A stretch of 64,000 bases of DNA from Trypanosoma brucei (taxonomy: Eukaryota), in contig CP000071.1 of NCBI GenBank assembly GCA_000002445.1, positions 2,048,001-2,112,000 of the forward strand, read 5' to 3'. This document shows positions 34,001 to 40,000 of this stretch, piece after piece; within the stretch, counting starts at the first letter, position 1, and each line of letters opens with the position of its first letter. Made by a program: the position numbers.

Positions 34001-37000
34001 TGATCGGCGAGTCGACCCCATTTCCACATGACGCATAAGGTCCGCCTTGATGACGGACTCGTGGAGGTGGATACAGCTGTGAGGGGGCAATTCGTATTGT
34101 ATTTGGATGAAAGAAGTGGCGTGTGGAGCGTTGCCCCAGCAGAACCACCGAGTAGCACGGTGAAAAGCAATCCGGAGAGTGCGCTAGCCGAAGTAGCGGT
34201 GAAGGAGGACAGCATAGATGATGAAGCATTGATGTTTTTCGCTGATTGAAGCCGATATTTCGTGCCTTTACAAGAATATCTCAATCCACTATGCACTTGG
34301 CACGCTGGTTGGTGCGACGGCGAGCTGGCGGTTGACATATGTGACTCGTCAGAGCAACTTACACTAACGCGAAGCCAATACACCCCTGCCCTTCTTTACT
34401 GTGGAAGTCTTAGCGTTTTGTGTTTTGCGGGTCGTTCTACCATTGGGATTGCAGTAATGGTTGATGCAAACGGCATTGGATATCAGCAAGGTGCGGTGGC
34501 AACAACTTTCACCTTCCCTTTCCGACACCCCTCCTATCTGAGGGAGCGGCTTGACACATTGACATACTCGGAAATGGGAATTTTGAAAGTCGTTGGACTC
34601 AGGCGAAACAAAATCAGTGTGCAGTCACTTTGTGTTTTGGATGGGAAGAAAATTCTTCACGATCTGGATACAACAGTGCTCGCCAAATCGGTACACCGCC
34701 AGGGCCTCCCAACTGCTGCCGTGATGGAAATCTGTTGGTGGTTGTTTCGGTTAGCGCAAGCTTTCTGTAATGTCCAAATTGTCTGCCCTGCCTATCGACC
34801 CCTAGTTAACCTGTAACAGAAATTTGTTTGTAGGATAAGTGCTCGTTTGTCAGGATCCCCGTATTTCCTTTTTCCTGCTTCTTCCGTCGCCTCTGAAGTT
34901 CAAAGGCCTTTTTTTACCCCTTTTTCATAACCTTGCGTGGTGGCAGGCACTTATGACCGCTCGACGACGCCATCGTCAGCGGCAAGCCAACGGTCACCCG
35001 CACAAACACGGAGTCTCACATCCCCGAGTGACGTCACAGGGCGAGGAGCAACAGCAGTGTGGAGACTCTTATGGGGCCCAGACCACACAACAAGGTGTTG
35101 ATTACTCATACCCTACGTCGCCGAATGCACAACCCGTGAGCATAAACCATTCAGAATTGCGGCCCGTAAAGGGTGAAGGAGAAAGACTAGAAATGTCAGT
35201 ATCTGAGGAAGTAAAACAACAACAGTCAGCAGAGCAGCGGGAAGCTGCTTCAAGCGCCTTTGATAATAACATAGAACAACACATGGAGTCACAAACAGTG
35301 ACGAAGCATGGTGCACACGACACTTCCACGCGGTCACGACGTGGAAGGACGACGAGGAGCGCAAGAGGGCGTGCCCAGGTGGGTGGGCGGCTATCCAAGC
35401 CGAAGGCGAAAACAGCTGCACTGGAAGCAGGAGGTTCCTTTGCTCCTCTTACTAGGGCCGCAGCCCCGCAGACGGTGGTGAGCGCGCTGGAGGAACAGCG
35501 GCGACTCCGGAATATAGTTGCAGCACCGCCAGCACCTTTGGTATACGAGGACCCTGCGGAATGCGACGATAGCGAAGTTCAGGACACGGCACACGACGAA
35601 GCGGTCGAGGTCAAGCGACAAGTGGGCTCTTTTTCGCGATCATTTAGCACCAATTATCCGAAGGGTACTACAGAAGTATCCGCACCGGCGGCGGAGTTAA
35701 ATGACACAAAGCCCATTTTCGGCAACAGTGAGCGAGATTCATCGCAAGCTGCCACCAAAGGACCCGAAGCTTTAGGCACAGGTTCTCACAGTGGTTCGGA
35801 AACACAATCAGGAACACAAGCGGAAGAATACAAATATGTTGGTGGTAGCGCTTATGGGCGACAGCGCACTGCAAACGTTGGAAGAGCTTTCGGTGGCAAA
35901 GGGACACCAAAGCGGAACCACATCGGGGACCGTACGCGGGGCTCCGCTCTCCCCTCGTCTGCAAATGCGGAAATTTACCAAACAGGTGAGGAGGAGGAAG
36001 GAACCGCGCGGAAGCAAACAGAAGGGCAACGAAACCAGGTGGAAACCGGGGCAGTCGCTCAAGGGGAAGCCGAAGGAGAGCACAGGCGAGTGAGGGTTGA
36101 ATCAACTAAGAAAGCAGTCATGCGCGGGGGAGCCGATGAGGAGGTCGTGTATAAAGGAGCAGGGGAGGCACGAACGGATGTCGAAGAGGAAGCGGCAAGG
36201 AGGAGAGCAGAAGAGGTGGCCCGAAGGCGGGCTGCAGCGAAAGATGTTTTAATGAGGCGGGCTGAAGAGGCGGCGCGCAGGAGGGCAGAAAAGGTGGCCC
36301 AAAGACGGGCTGAACACGCGGCCCGTCGAAAAGTTGAAGAGGAGGCGCGGAAGCGTGTGGAAGGGGGGGCACAGAAAGCAGCGGAGGAAGTGGCACGCAA
36401 AAATGCTGAAGAGGCGGCACGCAAGAAAGCTGAAGAGGAGGCACGCAAGAAAGCTGAAGAGGCGGCACGCAAGAAAGCTGAAGAGGCGGCACGCAAGAAA
36501 GCTGAAGAGGCGGCACGCAAGAAAGCTGAAGAGGCGGCACGCAAGAAAGCTGAAGAGGCGGCACGCAAGAAAGCTGAAGAGGCGGCACGCAAGAAAGCTG
36601 AAGAGGCGGCACGCAAGAAAGCTGAAGAGGCGGCACGCAAGAAAGCTGAAGAGGCGGCACGCAAGAAAGCTGAAGAGGCGGCACGCAAGAAAGCTGAAGA
36701 GGCGGCACGCAAGAAAGCTGAAGAGGCGGCACGCAAGAAAGCTGAAGAGGCGGCACGCAAGAAAGCTGAAGAGGCGGCACGCAAGAAAGCTGAAGAGGCG
36801 GCACGCAAGAAAGCTGAAGAGGCGGCACGCAAGAAAGCTGAAGAGGAGGCACGCAAGAAAGCTGAAGAGGAGGCACGCAAGAGGGCTGAAGAGGAGGCAC
36901 GCAAGAAAGCTGAAGAGGAGGCACGCAAGAGGGCTGAAGAGGCAGCACGCAAGAAAGCTGAAGAGGAGGCACGCAAGAAAGCTGAAGAGGAGGCACGCAA

Positions 37001-40000
37001 GAAAGCTGAAGAGGCGGCACGCAAGAAAGCTGAAGAGGCGGCACGCAAGAGGGCTGAAGAGGCGGCACGCAAGAAAGCTGAAGAGGCGGCACGCAAGAAA
37101 GCTGAAGAGGCGGCACGCAAGAAAGCTGAAGAGGCGGCACGCAAGAGGGCTGAAGAGGCGGCACGCAAGAAAGCTGAAGAGGAGGCGCGGAGAATGGCGG
37201 AGGAGGAGGAGGAAGCACGAAGGATGGCAGAAGAGGAGGCGGTCCGTAAGCGAGTTGAGCGGGAAGTGGCACGCAAGAAGGCTGAAGAAGTGGCGAGGAG
37301 AAGGGCTGAACAAGCGGTGCGTAAGAAAGCTGAAGAAGTAGCGGTACGCAAGAGGGCGGAGGAGGAGGCGGCACGAAGGATGGCAGAAGAAGAAGAAGCG
37401 CGTAGAATGGCGGAAGAGGAGAATTTGGAGCGCGGGCGAGCCGTGGATGGGGCTGCACGTACCGCGACGGGGAACGAGACTACTCTAACGGAACAACAGC
37501 GCCGTGAAAGGGCGAAGAAGAAGTTAGAACGGTATCGCAAGCAAGCGCTGGCACGTAATCAGAGGCCTGCCTGGAGGGAGAGCGATGCCGCAGCCGCTGC
37601 CGCGGCGGCTGTTGCACAAGGTGCCGCGGATGTGCCGTTTGTCCCCACAAGAGGAAACACCATTCTTCCCTCAGAAGCACGTGCAGCATCCACTTCGGAG
37701 GAAGAGTTGATAGCCGGCGCTCTCACCTTCCCCAACAGCAATGTTGCAATTGAGAAGTTTGACGAAAATCAATTAGTCGTGCGACGCCAGAGCCTGGATG
37801 ATCCGTGGGATATTGGCCTGCGGTTCGACTGGACAATCAAAACGCTGGCAATCGGTTCCCTGCCCACCTATCGGCTGACAGACCCACGCCGCATGCACCC
37901 CTTTATGCGCATGTATCAGTCCAAACCTGTGTGGTTCCTTGAAGAAGTTAATGGCACAAAGGCTAATAACATTCGCGAGGTGATGGAAGTTCTCAAGAAA
38001 AGTCTCTTGGCAAAGTTTGTGTTTAGAAAACCGCACTGAAGTCAGTAGCCGAATGCTCGCTGAGATACATCCGCGTTCTCGGTGCTTTCGCCTCTACCCA
38101 GATGCGTCTCGCATTGAGGTAATCATCACCGACAGTCCTAGGTCTCATGTTCGAATTACATAGCCAATGATGCCACCGACTGTCCTTATTGTTATTCGGG
38201 TGAGAGGATGCGGACCCTAGCGTCGGCAAGAGGGTATCGTAAACAATTTTAAACTGCGGAGTAACCAACGCCGCGTTTTTCGACTGCGGGCTTGAAGGCG
38301 CCCGCGTGCTTCACTTTGACCCGTGCACTCTGCTTTCGGAGGGGCCCGGAGTGTGCACTACCGCCGTTAACTCTTGGGCATACGGTATACATACTTATAG
38401 ACACTACGAAACATTCCATAGAATAAACTCCGCGTTAACATACATCACTTCATTTTCTGTGTTCGTGGTCCCGTCCTCACTTTTGGTTCTTTGGTGGGTC
38501 TAACTAACGATGTTGATGAGTAACGTGACAGCTGTGGTCGGGGTGGAGTGCTTTTTATCAGCAGTGTACCGCAATGGTGTCAGCTTATTCTATCACATTT
38601 CAATCTATCCTGCCTTCATTTTGCCTTATGTAAGAGGCGCGCAAATTTAGGTAGGGCAGCATCGCATCGACGACAACAGGAGCATTTGAAAGCTGGTTCG
38701 TTTGACCTTTTAACTCTGATGTTCTGACGCACGTCTTTGTTTGTCAGCTTTCCTAGTCGCATTAGTTTATATTATGCGCACATTGTCGACGGAACCGAAT
38801 TGGAGGCAATCCGAAGCCGTAGCTCTATTTTACTACTACAGGTAATTTCCCAGCGCAGTGACCAGAGCATCTGCGCATCAGCGCTTTCAACGGCCGAGCT
38901 GACAACTTAAGCTTTGCAACCGGCTACGCCGGCAGTAGAACTAGTCACGCAAGAATCCGGTTTCCAGACCAGCTCTCCCATGGTGGGGGGAACGCCTCAA
39001 TAAAAAAAATTAACCGGTTTTTTTGAATTCAGTATTGGTACGTTCCCACGTATCGCTGCAGCGAGCGCAACCAGGGCCTCATTGATCGATATTTGGTGAT
39101 GAAACGCAGTTCTCATCCACAAAACTCCGCTTTTATTGATGGTCGAATCTGCTGCACCGTAGTAAAGGGCACTTCGCGCCAAAATCACCGACTTTGAGGG
39201 ACTGCGCCAGGTGGAGAGAAGTGAAACGTAAGTGGAGGAGGCCGTACGCCCCGTGCACTTACCTGATGAGTAGTGGGGAGCAACACAGCATAAGAGATGT
39301 GCTGCGTGCCAAATGGATTAAATTATGGGGGGGGGGGTTGTGCGTATCTCTAGCGAAGGGAGTCGCAAGGCCCACAGGTTAGTTTGGTACCTTGCCAACG
39401 GGAATTCCAAATATCGTGCCAATCTGGGGGGAGGGATTCCGGTCGCTGCGACAACTCTCTCAAGCTCAGGATGGAAGTTTTAGTTGCACTTCCAAAGATG
39501 CCGAGAGCAAGACATTCGAGCTAACAAAGTCAAGGTGTTGCCGCTGTAGCAGTGGAAGGAATCAAGGCAGGGTGAAACATGCTACGCATGGAGTGATGGG
39601 GGAAAACATGAAGTTGTTTTTTGAACGGCGTCAAGTGTGCACGGGCACCTATGTCTATCACGTGATTTTGCTGCGGCGGTAACTATAAATAAGGTCTGGA
39701 TGTTGGGGGCCCGTTTCCCTTCGGTCGTGGTTTGCTGGAGTTCTTTTCTCTGTGTGCATGTGAAAAGAATGAATTTCTTTGGGTTGTTGAAAAAAAAAAA
39801 CATGTTTCGTGTAACTGTGGGAAGCGTGAGTTAGAGTTGATGCGCTTCCTCGGCACCCAGACGAATGAGCGGTATTGCCATACGATACACAAAAAGTGTA
39901 CAATCTTTCGGTTAACAGGATACTTTTACCCTCTCTTGGTTGACCATCTTTCTCGTCGGTTTTTTCTCCTTCAGATGTTCCTTTATCGCCTCGCGTGCGG

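What the first reader, a model, noticed from the sequence alone, without database searches (positions are those of the whole stretch)
36183..37420. Near-perfect 24-bp (AEEAARKK) coding array with degenerate edges inside a large PDZ-like protein: candidate repetitive antigen or charged single-alpha-helix spacer
About 30 central units are virtually identical at the nucleotide level, while the flanking units decay progressively. This is the classic signature of ongoing unequal crossing-over homogenising the array centre. Alternating E/R/K octads are predicted to form a stable single alpha-helix (ER/K SAH) rod. In trypanosomatids, such tandem-repeat proteins are often immunodominant B-cell antigens. 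The protein's PDZ-like C-terminus suggests a scaffold role.
Basis: partly seen in the sequence, partly recalled or inferred. Interest (0 to 1): 0.6.

Follow-up and report, generated by a model that had tools for sequence, protein, structure and literature searches.

The report
Charged helical repeat in trypanosome protein
The 24-base repeat is real and lies inside an already annotated but functionally uncharacterised Trypanosoma brucei gene (Tb927.8.7260), where it most likely encodes a long stiff charged alpha-helical spacer ahead of a PDZ-like binding domain; this is a tidy but fairly ordinary example of a known kind of protein segment.

Summary
TRF finds a 24-bp array at 36392-37186 (33.1 copies, 96% matches). 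In codon register there are 32 units (36405-37172), 22 of them identical. Degenerate E/R/K/A units flank the array on both sides (36183-36404, 37173-37421).

The host ORF (34953-38036, + strand, 1028 aa) is 100% identical to T. brucei brucei TREU927 Tb927.8.7260, annotated "kinetoplast-associated protein, putative". Two papers already note the repeat region.

The octad AEEAARKK gives uninterrupted i/i+4 Glu-Arg/Lys ladders, and the core contains no hydrophobic residue. This fits an ER/K single alpha-helix (about 38 nm for the core, up to 62 nm in all) and argues against a coiled coil.

Syntenic orthologues in other trypanosomes carry 9-residue ER/K units. T. vivax has only a short degenerate stretch, and Leishmaniinae have none.

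Antigenicity was not tested. The antigenic Leishmania "LinKAP" is probably a different gene. Cellular function remains inferred.

The parts
34953..38039 (+). Complete CDS with stop codon. The 1028-aa protein is identical to T. brucei brucei TREU927 XP_847555.1 (Tb927.8.7260, 'kinetoplast-associated protein, putative').
   Evidence: ORF list and translation. Exact identity to P0008 once the start is set at the ATG at 34953. Cluster names and accessions. Gene ID: my recollection, corroborated by two papers that describe the same chromosome-8 gene.
34953..36182 (+). N-terminal 410 aa. Low-complexity and probably disordered (rich in G, S, T, Q, A, R). It has a very basic N-terminus (MTARRRHRQRQ...) and no Pfam domain.
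   Evidence: Pfam gave nothing above threshold. Composition. A homologue search with this region returned nothing.
36183..36404 (+). 5' degenerate ER/K units (aa 411-484), mostly 8-residue: AEEVARRR, AEEAARRR, AEKVAQRR, AEHAARRK, VEEEARKR and similar.
   Evidence: Unit-by-unit comparison: 13-20/24 identity for in-register units. The E/R/K/A pattern is kept while the DNA diverges.
36405..37172 (+). Core array (aa 485-740): 32 x 24 bp encoding AEEAARKK and its variants AEEEARKK, AEEEARKR, AEEAARKR. 22 units are identical, 16 of them consecutive (36453-36836).
   Evidence: TRF. Register analysis. Unit typing.
37173..37421 (+). 3' degenerate ER/K units (aa 741-823) of 8, 9 or 10 residues (AEEEARRM, AEEEEEARRM, AEEEAVRKR, AEEEAARRM, AEEEEARRM...). 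The 9-residue units resemble those of the chromosome-4 paralogue and of T. conorhini and T. rangeli.
   Evidence: Comparison with L002, L004 and L005. T. equiperdum has one extra 21-nt unit here.
37491..37559 (+). Conserved basic helix in the linker (aa 847-869, EQQRRERAKKKLERYRKQALARN).
Evidence: Invariant K/K/E/R/K/Q columns in alignment A1. Also present in Leishmaniinae orthologues.
37629..37643 (+). Conserved short motif DVPFV (aa 893-897; consensus [DE]-x-P-[LFV]-V), lying upstream of the domain.
   Evidence: Invariant D and P in A1. The same motif occurs upstream of DUF7759 in the Leishmaniinae orthologues and in the second DUF7759 family.
37695..38036 (+). C-terminal PDZ-like domain (aa 915-1028; the Pfam DUF7759 match covers aa 921-1025). 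It has an x-hydrophobic-G-hydrophobic loop (D953-I-G-L956) preceded by the invariant R945.

Best explanation
The array encodes the central part of a roughly 410-residue ER/K-type single alpha-helix (SAH) in Tb927.8.7260, a kinetoplastid-specific protein.

**Protein layout.** A disordered, basic N-terminal region is followed by the charged helix, then a short conserved basic helix and a [DE]xP[LFV]V motif, and finally a C-terminal PDZ-like domain (DUF7759).

**Why a single helix.** In AEEAARKK every Glu has Arg or Lys four residues on, and every Arg6/Lys7 has Glu four residues on. Two continuous salt-bridge ladders therefore run along an Ala-rich helix that has no hydrophobic seam.

**Proposed role (inferred).** The segment should act as a semi-rigid monomeric rod, about 38 nm for the 32-unit core and up to about 62 nm with the degenerate flanks. 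It would hold the PDZ-like partner-binding module at a set distance from whatever the N-terminal region binds. Copy number would set the length.

**Origin at DNA level.** The array arose by recent amplification of one 24-bp unit inside an older, degenerate ER/K region. The mechanism could be unequal exchange, slippage or gene conversion.

**Shown here:** the repeat, the gene identity, the charge pattern, the domain family, the PDZ-like predicted fold, and lineage-specific turnover of the repeat unit.

**Inferred:** helicity and monomeric state, the spacer role, the ligand-binding role of the domain, and the cellular site.
For: **Repeat anatomy:**

**Identity to the annotated T. brucei gene:**

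**Charge pattern.** Per octad there are 4 opposite-charge i/i+4 pairs, 3 i/i+3 pairs and no like-charge pair. The windowed score is 0.7-1.0 across aa 462-756 and about 0 elsewhere.

**Composition.** The core is A 35%, E 28%, K 23%, R 14% and nothing else.

**No coiled-coil seam.** The Ala face rotates +80 degrees per unit. This is incompatible with a heptad or hendecad seam.

**Selection on character rather than sequence.**
- Flank units diverge in DNA but keep A/E/R/K classes.
- Syntenic orthologues and the chromosome-4 paralogue have ER/K arrays at the same position but with different 9-residue units (AEEEAERKR, AEEEAERMK).
- T. vivax has about 110 degenerate ER/K residues there.

**Established knowledge (from memory, not retrieved here).** Peptides with E-to-K/R i+4 spacing and Ala-rich peptides are stable monomeric helices (Marqusee & Baldwin 1987). 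ER/K SAHs act as rigid spacers (Sivaramakrishnan et al. 2008; Peckham & Knight 2009; Suveges et al. 2009).
Against: - No structural or biophysical test of the repeat was possible.
- Leishmaniinae and Phytomonas orthologues have no ER/K segment at all (maximum score 0.07-0.14). A rod is therefore not required for the conserved function of the family.
- T. evansi STIB805 reportedly carries an internal deletion with a frameshift in this gene (PMC4288722). The chromosome-8 copy, or its array, may therefore be dispensable.
- A recombinant repeat fragment of the similarly annotated Leishmania LinKAP was only about 26% helical by CD. That protein is probably not homologous and has a different 10-residue unit.
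Confidence: 0.5

Rival explanations
1. The array is an essentially neutral, fast-evolving low-complexity expansion in a disordered linker (a polyampholyte). Its length and structure do not matter. Slippage or unequal exchange inflates and deflates it without selection.
For: - Unit length, sequence and net charge differ between paralogues and species (8 vs 9 residues; +1 vs -1 or -2 per unit).
- The ER/K region is short in T. vivax and absent from Leishmaniinae and Phytomonas orthologues.
- T. evansi carries a deletion.
- The LinKAP repeat fragment was mostly non-helical by CD.
Against: - The degenerate flanks and every Trypanosoma orthologue or paralogue examined keep the E/R/K/A class pattern although the DNA and the unit period differ.
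- All substitutions in the core are A<->E or K<->R.
- The octad is close to an ideal helix-forming design.
Confidence: 0.25
2. The main biological significance of the repeat is immunological. It would be an immunodominant tandem-repeat B-cell antigen, acting as a decoy or usable as a diagnostic target, as for other trypanosomatid repeat proteins.
For: - Tandem-repeat proteins of parasites are frequent B-cell targets (abstract of PMC6091968).
- A repetitive Leishmania protein with the same annotation (LinKAP) is antigenic and protective in animals (PMC12108087).
- A T. cruzi protein named 'kinetoplast-associated protein' has a region with 70% seroprevalence (PMC10070320).
Against: - No serological data exist for this protein or peptide in the searchable library.
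- LinKAP is on Leishmania chromosome 27, is 660 aa and has 10-residue repeats. The syntenic DUF7759 orthologue in L. martiniquensis is 1317 aa, has no such repeats and lies on a 1.55-Mb chromosome.
- The antigenic T. cruzi peptide was not found in any family member retrieved.
- The protein has no obvious secretion signal. Antigenicity would in any case be a by-product, not a cellular mechanism.
Confidence: 0.12
3. The repeat forms a two-stranded coiled coil that dimerises the protein.
For: High predicted helicity. Coiled-coil predictors are known to score charged repeats highly (general knowledge).
Against: - The 256-residue core contains only A, E, R and K, so it has no L, I, V, M, F, Y or W.
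- The 8-residue period makes the Ala face rotate 80 degrees per unit, so no continuous seam exists. For the 9-residue units the rotation is 180 degrees.
Confidence: 0.06
4. The number of units, or the array itself, is an assembly artefact.
For: - Short-read assemblies of relatives all break at this locus. T. equiperdum contigs end inside the arrays of both paralogues.
- The T. grayi contig ends at the ER/K region.
- T. rangeli and T. conorhini have runs of N inside the arrays.
- No other assembly in the collection encodes the identical protein.
Against: - The window gives exactly the protein deposited for the reference genome.
- The longest stretch without a distinguishing variant is 16 units (384 bp), bounded by variant units.
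- Arrays sit at the same position in several species and in both paralogues.
- Read-depth differences between TREU927 and T. evansi were reported at this gene.
Confidence: 0.04

Closest known systems
ER/K single alpha-helix (SAH) domains, for example in myosin VI and X, caldesmon and the Trichomonas Kelch-motif protein, and designed E4K4 or A(EAAAK)n helices
   Same: - Very high E+R+K content (about 65% in the core) with Ala.
- Systematic opposite charges at i/i+4 and i/i+3.
- No hydrophobic seam.
- Placed as a linker between other modules.
   Different: - Built from 32 nearly identical octads rather than an irregular ER/K sequence.
- Longer than most characterised SAHs.
- Net positive (+25 in the core).
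- Helicity and monomeric state are untested.
Pfam DUF7759 (PF24945), a kinetoplastid domain of unknown function
   Same: The C-terminal 105 residues match end to end (E 2e-35, 121 bits against a cut-off of 27). An exhaustive profile search finds the domain only in kinetoplastids, apart from two spurious bird satellite ORFs.
   Different: None as to membership. The family has no described function. Here it is shown to have a PDZ-like predicted fold.
Canonical PDZ domains (e.g. LNX PDZ 3vqg, CASK 1kwa, MAGI2 7d6f)
   Same: - Predicted fold and strand/helix order are the same (b1-b2-b3-a1-b4-b5-a2-b6).
- An x-hydrophobic-G-hydrophobic loop follows a conserved Arg.
- A 'VNG' turn sits before b5.
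   Different: - No significant sequence similarity (Pfam PDZ_1 E 0.1-0.26; no PDB sequence hit at E <= 10).
- It has an extra N-terminal strand and longer loops.
- No ligand is known.
Leishmania infantum LinKAP (LINF_270007500), 'kinetoplast-associated protein-like protein' (PMC12108087)
   Same: - Same style of database annotation.
- Repetitive and charged.
- Reported as mitochondrion-associated but not kDNA-specific.
- The authors state that related sequences exist in T. brucei.
   Different: - LinKAP is on chromosome 27, is 660 aa and has 10-residue repeats; its recombinant fragment has pI 4.77.
- The syntenic Leishmaniinae orthologues of the present gene are 985-1317 aa, A/P/T-rich, lack tandem repeats and end in DUF7759.
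- No 660-aa Leishmania protein appeared in the exhaustive DUF7759 search.
Classical kinetoplast-associated proteins KAP1-4 and KAP6 (small basic H1-like or HMG-box kDNA-binding proteins)
   Same: Only the word 'kinetoplast-associated' in the annotation.
   Different: No HMG box or other DNA-binding domain was detected. The protein is 1028 aa with a different architecture.
Tb927.4.5120, the chromosome-4 paralogue (Jackson 2007, PMC2212663)
   Same: - Same duplicon, followed by the same ERGIC gene.
- Linker plus DUF7759 region 71% identical over 94% of the 211-residue C-terminal query.
- ER/K array at the same position.
   Different: - The unit is 9 residues and acidic (AEEEAERMK / AEEDAERVE).
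- It is reported to be longer than the chromosome-8 copy.
- Only a T. equiperdum fragment of it was available here.

Membership tests
Pfam DUF7759 (PF24945) | Match to the family HMM above the gathering score | tested here: met
   121-127 bits against a cut-off of 27, covering profile positions 4-109 of 109.
PDZ domain (sequence families, Pfam PDZ clan) | Significant match to a PDZ HMM | tested here: not met
   The best is PDZ_1 at E 0.1-0.26, 12-13 bits against a cut-off of 28. Only 3 of 20 family members give even this. A profile search against PDB sequences gave no hit at E <= 10.
PDZ domain (fold) | Six-stranded partly open barrel with two helices in canonical order | tested here: met
PDZ domain (function) | Carboxylate-binding loop (R/K-x-x-x-G-hydrophobic-G-hydrophobic type) and binding of C-terminal or internal peptides in the b2/a2 groove | tested here: inconclusive
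   R945 is invariant and D-I-G-L (953-956) fits x-hydrophobic-G-hydrophobic. In the second DUF7759 family the Gly is replaced (G-L-S-M). Peptide binding cannot be tested here.
ER/K single alpha-helix (SAH) | E+R+K-rich segment with a dense opposite-charge i/i+4 and i/i+3 pattern and few like-charge clashes | tested here: met
   4 i/i+4 and 3 i/i+3 opposite-charge pairs per octad with 0 like-charge pairs. The score stays >=0.4 over 295 consecutive residues. This was my own simple score, not Waggawagga or SCAN4CSAH.
ER/K single alpha-helix (SAH) | No hydrophobic heptad seam | tested here: met
   The core contains only A, E, R and K. The Ala face rotates 80 degrees per unit.
ER/K single alpha-helix (SAH) | Monomeric, highly helical, non-cooperative unfolding in solution | not testable with these tools
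   Needs CD, AUC or SAXS on a recombinant repeat.
Trypanosomatid tandem-repeat B-cell antigens | Recognition by sera of infected hosts | not testable with these tools
   No paper in the library mentions the peptide, or the gene in a serological context.
Classical KAPs (KAP1-4, KAP6) | Small Lys-rich H1-like or HMG-box kDNA-binding protein | tested here: not met
   The protein is 1028 aa. Pfam finds only DUF7759 and a spurious low-complexity Cornifin match.
LinKAP orthogroup (Leishmania chromosome 27) | Orthology by shared synteny and shared non-repeat domains | tested here: inconclusive
   The syntenic Leishmania gene (EMP24 and RCC1 downstream) is a 1317-aa DUF7759 protein on a 1.55-Mb chromosome. 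LinKAP is described as 660 aa on chromosome 27. The LinKAP sequence itself could not be obtained.

The most novel reading that the evidence does not exclude
After the chromosome 4/8 duplication, the chromosome-8 paralogue may have replaced an ancestral acidic 9-residue ER/K unit with a basic 8-residue unit. The period of that unit is exactly two i+4 steps, which makes an unusually ideal and rapidly length-tunable molecular ruler.

The protein would tether a PDZ-like domain within the mitochondrion or kinetoplast-segregation apparatus. Its truncation in akinetoplastic T. evansi would then reflect relaxed selection once kDNA is dispensable.

This would make copy number of a coding minisatellite a direct determinant of a subcellular distance.
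Probability: 0.1. Interest if true: 0.6.

Novelty: new member of a known kind. Interest (0 to 1): 0.3.

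Why it matters
If the array is a true single alpha-helix, Tb927.8.7260 would be a natural, nearly perfect modular "ruler" whose length is set by a recombination-prone minisatellite.

That would make it a convenient system for testing how spacer length affects the function of a scaffold protein. It would also give a first structural handle (a PDZ-like fold) on DUF7759, a kinetoplastid-only domain found in two protein families.

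Two practical points follow:
- Short-read assemblies break at this locus in five independent cases, so annotated lengths of these proteins in other species are unreliable.
- The "kinetoplast-associated" label is unverified and seems to be shared by unrelated genes.

Otherwise this is an already annotated gene with an ordinary type of coding repeat.

Tried and rejected
**Searches that gave nothing useful**
- Word-indexed homologue searches were swamped by low-complexity candidates. The C-terminal query and its profile each returned the same 7 Trypanosoma hits. The N-terminal query returned nothing, not even the protein itself. This ruled out comparing copy number across T. brucei strains.
- The first AF2 run on 185 residues with 7 sequences was too uncertain to use (pLDDT 52.8). 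It was replaced by a 114-residue, 20-sequence run.
- The afdb50 fold library was unavailable.
- Sequence searches against the PDB gave only noise.
- Literature searches for the repeat peptides, DUF names and accessions found nothing.
- The 1990 T. cruzi KAP paper (Gonzalez et al., PMID 1694571) is cited in PMC2700280 and, from my memory, is probably the source of the annotation. It is not held in the library, so the origin of the "kinetoplast-associated" label could not be verified.

**Hits judged spurious**
- The Pfam "Cornifin" hit on the repeat (E 1e-14) is a low-complexity artefact.
- Hits P0016 and P0018 in the exhaustive search are satellite-like ORFs from a hawfinch genome. They match a 50-position stretch of the profile 18-25 times.

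**Readings rejected**
- The antisense and alternative-frame ORFs across the array are by-products of a stop-free repeat.
- LinKAP was considered as the direct orthologue. It was set aside on synteny, length and architecture.
- The antigenic T. cruzi peptide from TcCLB.509791.120 occurs in none of the retrieved family members.

Full report
**1. The observation**

Tandem Repeats Finder reports one 24-bp array at 36392-37186, with 33.1 copies, 96% matches, no indels and score 1457. It is the only repeat scoring >=100 in the whole 64-kb window.

I read the array in the codon register of the host ORF.
- There are 32 units from 36405 to 37172, each >=21/24 identical to GCTGAAGAGGCGGCACGCAAGAAA (AEEAARKK).
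- 22 units are exact copies, and 16 of these are consecutive (36453-36836).
- The order of unit types is ABAAAAAAAAAAAAAAAABCBCDBBAEAAAEA.
- All variation sits at four nucleotide positions and yields only A<->E, K<->R or a silent change.

Both sides are flanked by degenerate E/R/K/A units (36183-36404 and 37173-37421). The finding's coordinates therefore enclose the whole ER/K region, aa 411-823.

- The perfectly homogeneous block is off-centre, in the 5' half. The 3' half is a mosaic of variant units.
- Flank identity does not decline monotonically with distance.

The long antisense and alternative-frame ORFs over the array are by-products of a stop-free repeat.

**2. What the gene is**

The ORF 34953-38036 (+) encodes 1028 aa. 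This is 100% identical to XP_847555.1 / Q57YV4 of Trypanosoma brucei brucei TREU927 chromosome 8, annotated "kinetoplast-associated protein, putative". The gene ID Tb927.8.7260 is my recollection. Two papers that use it describe the same chromosome-8 gene.

The neighbours fit that chromosome region.
- Upstream and downstream: VPS11, a protein kinase, Maf1, ERGIC/ERV, emp24 and RCC1.
- After a convergent strand switch: two VSG-related genes and two trans-sialidase genes.

Two papers mention the gene.
- Jackson (2007, PMC2212663) lists it with Tb927.4.5120 as a divergent paralogue pair of the chromosome 4/8 duplicon. It says the chromosome-8 copy is much shorter, having lost repetitive sequence.
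- Carnes et al. (2015, PMC4288722) report an internal deletion with a frameshift in the mid-region of this gene in akinetoplastic T. evansi STIB805. It was seen in read depth and in a de novo contig.

No functional study of the T. brucei protein was found.

**3. Architecture**

- **N-terminal region (aa 1-410).** Compositionally simple (G, S, T, Q, A, R), with a very basic N-terminus and no Pfam match.
- **ER/K region (aa 411-823).** A 31%, E 28%, R 17%, K 17%, with 4.6% hydrophobic residues. The 256-residue core contains only A, E, R and K.
- **Linker (aa 824-914).** It carries a conserved basic helix (aa 847-869) and an invariant D-x-P motif (DVPFV, aa 893-897).
- **C-terminal domain (aa 921-1025).** It matches Pfam DUF7759 end to end (E 2e-35).

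**4. The PDZ-like claim**

Pfam's PDZ models fail. PDZ_1 scores E 0.1-0.26 and 12-13 bits against a cut-off of 28. A profile of 20 family members finds nothing in PDB sequences at E <= 10.

The fold evidence points the other way. An AlphaFold2 model of the last 114 residues, built on that 20-sequence alignment, is confident (mean pLDDT 88.3, pTM 0.80). It has the strand and helix order of a canonical PDZ domain plus one extra N-terminal strand.
- All 50 best Foldseek matches in the PDB are PDZ domains (E 5e-3 to 8e-2, probability 0.80-1.00).
- The invariant R945 followed by W952-D-I-G-L-R-F corresponds to the basic residue plus x-hydrophobic-G-hydrophobic carboxylate-binding loop.
- "EVNG" and the following helix correspond to b4-b5 and a2.

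"PDZ-like" is therefore supported at fold level, on a predicted structure. Membership of the PDZ sequence family is not shown, and ligand binding is inferred.

**5. Family and evolution**

An exhaustive HMM search of 1.84 billion representative proteins with the linker-plus-domain profile gave only 19 hits. Apart from two spurious satellite ORFs from a bird genome, all are kinetoplastid. They fall into three groups.
- **(a) Trypanosoma orthologues.**
- **(b) Leishmaniinae and Phytomonas proteins of 553-1317 aa.** They have A/P/T-rich N-terminal regions and no ER/K segment. Some are annotated "kinetoplast-associated protein-like".
- **(c) A second family with the architecture DUF7760-DUF7761-DUF7762-DUF7759.** It includes T. 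brucei XP_846155.1.

Gene order around the locus (Maf1 ... gene ... ERGIC, emp24, RCC1) is kept in full or in part in T. vivax, T. rangeli, T. conorhini, T. grayi, Phytomonas and Leishmania martiniquensis. Groups (a) and (b) are therefore syntenic orthologues.

The ER/K segment is confined to Trypanosoma and turns over quickly.
- T. conorhini and T. rangeli use a 9-residue unit, AEEEAERKR.
- The chromosome-4 paralogue (T. equiperdum fragment) uses AEEEAERMK / AEEDAERVE.
- T. vivax has only about 110 degenerate ER/K residues.
- The Leishmaniinae score at background level.

The 3' flank of the chromosome-8 array still contains 9-residue units (AEEEAARRM, AEEEEARRM) that resemble the paralogue's. 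This suggests the octad is a derived unit that expanded inside an older array.

Net charge per unit changes from -1 or -2 to +1.

Short-read assemblies break at this locus in five independent cases.
- Both T. equiperdum paralogues: the contig ends inside the array.
- T. grayi: the contig ends at the ER/K region.
- T. rangeli and T. conorhini: runs of N inside the array.

T. equiperdum also differs from TREU927 by one extra 21-nt unit at the 3' edge.

**6. Mechanism**

*Charge pattern.* In AEEAARKK, E2-R6-E2' and E3-K7-E3' form two uninterrupted i/i+4 ladders. Per octad there are 4 i/i+4 and 3 i/i+3 opposite-charge pairs and no like-charge pair. A simple windowed score is 0.7-1.0 across aa 462-756 and about 0 in the rest of the protein.

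*Against a coiled coil.* The only non-charged residue is Ala. The Ala face rotates +80 degrees per unit, so no heptad or hendecad seam can form.

*Background (from memory, not retrieved here).* Glu-to-Lys/Arg i+4 spacing and Ala-rich peptides give stable monomeric helices (Marqusee & Baldwin). ER/K single alpha-helices behave as semi-rigid rods (Sivaramakrishnan et al. 2008; Peckham & Knight 2009; Suveges et al. 2009).

*Most likely reading.* The region is a SAH of about 38 nm for the core, and up to about 62 nm in all. It would space the PDZ-like module from the N-terminal region.

*Evidence for selection on helix-forming character.* The E/R/K/A pattern persists although DNA sequence, unit period and species differ.

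*Evidence against a strict requirement.* The segment is absent from Leishmaniinae orthologues and T. evansi carries a deletion.

*What remains open.* Recent amplification of a single unit type is evident from the 16 identical units. The data cannot separate unequal sister-chromatid exchange, slippage and gene conversion. Helicity, oligomeric state, spacer function, ligand and subcellular site are all inferred.

**7. Antigen hypothesis and LinKAP**

Repeat proteins are often B-cell antigens in parasites. A repetitive Leishmania protein with the same style of annotation, LinKAP, is antigenic and protective in animals. It is mitochondrion-associated without being kDNA-specific (PMC12108087).

LinKAP, however, differs in almost every measurable respect.
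- It is on chromosome 27, is 660 aa and has 10-residue repeats. Its recombinant fragment has pI 4.77 and was about 26% helical by CD.
- The syntenic Leishmania orthologue of the present gene is a 1317-aa, repeat-free DUF7759 protein on a 1.55-Mb chromosome.
- No 660-aa Leishmania protein was recovered by the exhaustive domain search.

LinKAP is therefore probably a different gene that shares only a charged low-complexity character and a propagated name. I could not obtain its sequence to prove this.

The antigenic T. cruzi "kinetoplast-associated protein" peptide is not present in any family member retrieved. No paper holds the repeat peptides. Antigenicity of this protein is untested.

**8. 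Verdict**

The repeat is real, coding and far beyond chance. It lies in a known, annotated T. brucei gene whose repetitive middle has already been remarked on.

The antigen idea is unsupported either way. The "kinetoplast-associated" label has no verifiable basis here.

This is a new, rather clean member of a known kind of protein segment. Interest is modest.

Noticed in passing
window 37491-37559 and 37629-37643; also P0009-P0015 and P0019-P0024: A basic helix (KKKLERYRKQ-like) and a short [DE]-x-P-[LFV]-V motif lie 25-70 residues upstream of every DUF7759 domain. They occur in both protein families and in both Trypanosoma and Leishmaniinae. The motif could be a conserved linear motif, possibly an internal ligand of the PDZ-like domain.
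   Followed up: partly
P0009-P0013 and P0015 (Leishmaniinae orthologues); L005 2618-4144 (T. conorhini): The Leishmaniinae orthologues carry 1-3 copies of a motif like ISR[IL]PKK[RK]KFF[AS]E[LM][DE] in their A/P/T-rich N-terminal regions. T. conorhini has a similar KPKMAFLFEEAE / KSPKLAFLFDDAG. The T. brucei chromosome-8 protein has none.
   Followed up: partly
P0019, P0040 and P0041 (T. brucei XP_846155.1, 746 aa, on a 2.2-Mb chromosome): A second kinetoplastid family ends in DUF7759 and has the architecture DUF7760-DUF7761-DUF7762-DUF7759. DUF7761 and DUF7762 cross-match DUF7759 members weakly, so these may be multi-PDZ-like proteins.
   Followed up: partly
L003 8412-10810 (T. vivax, long-read assembly): The T. 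vivax orthologue is annotated as two genes (499 aa and 269 aa). A reading-frame change just after a short degenerate ER/K stretch separates them. This is either an assembly or annotation error or a real frameshift.
   Followed up: no
L001 1-60 compared with window 37173-37200: T. equiperdum OVI has one extra 21-nt unit (AEEARRM) at the 3' edge of the array, and one V-to-A difference further on, relative to TREU927.
   Followed up: yes
window 47184-55000 and 58761-63949: There are two near-identical tandem duplications on the minus strand. One is a unit of about 3.9 kb carrying a VSG-related gene (48002-49087 and 51897-52982). The other is a 2.7-kb unit carrying a trans-sialidase gene (58984-61230 and 61703-63949). 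The first was reported absent from T. evansi and T. b. gambiense.
   Followed up: partly
window about 44800-48000: GC skew changes sign and coding strand switches from + to -, giving a convergent strand-switch region. ARAGORN found no tRNA gene anywhere in the window.
   Followed up: no
window 1900-4300: A markedly AT-rich stretch (GC 0.29-0.35 against about 0.48 elsewhere) shows strong alternating AT skew. It lies between the ORFs ending at 1994 and starting at 5363.
   Followed up: no
window 36001-38000: The coding strand of the repeat region is strongly purine-rich (GC skew +0.29, AT skew +0.54). This is why all three minus-strand frames and a second plus-strand frame stay open across it.
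   Followed up: no
P0016 and P0018 (Coccothraustes coccothraustes, 'unnamed protein product'): Two very repetitive ORFs from a hawfinch genome hit a 50-position stretch of the DUF7759-linker profile 18-25 times each (summed E 1e-20 to 1e-25). I judged this a spurious accumulation over a satellite repeat.
   Followed up: partly
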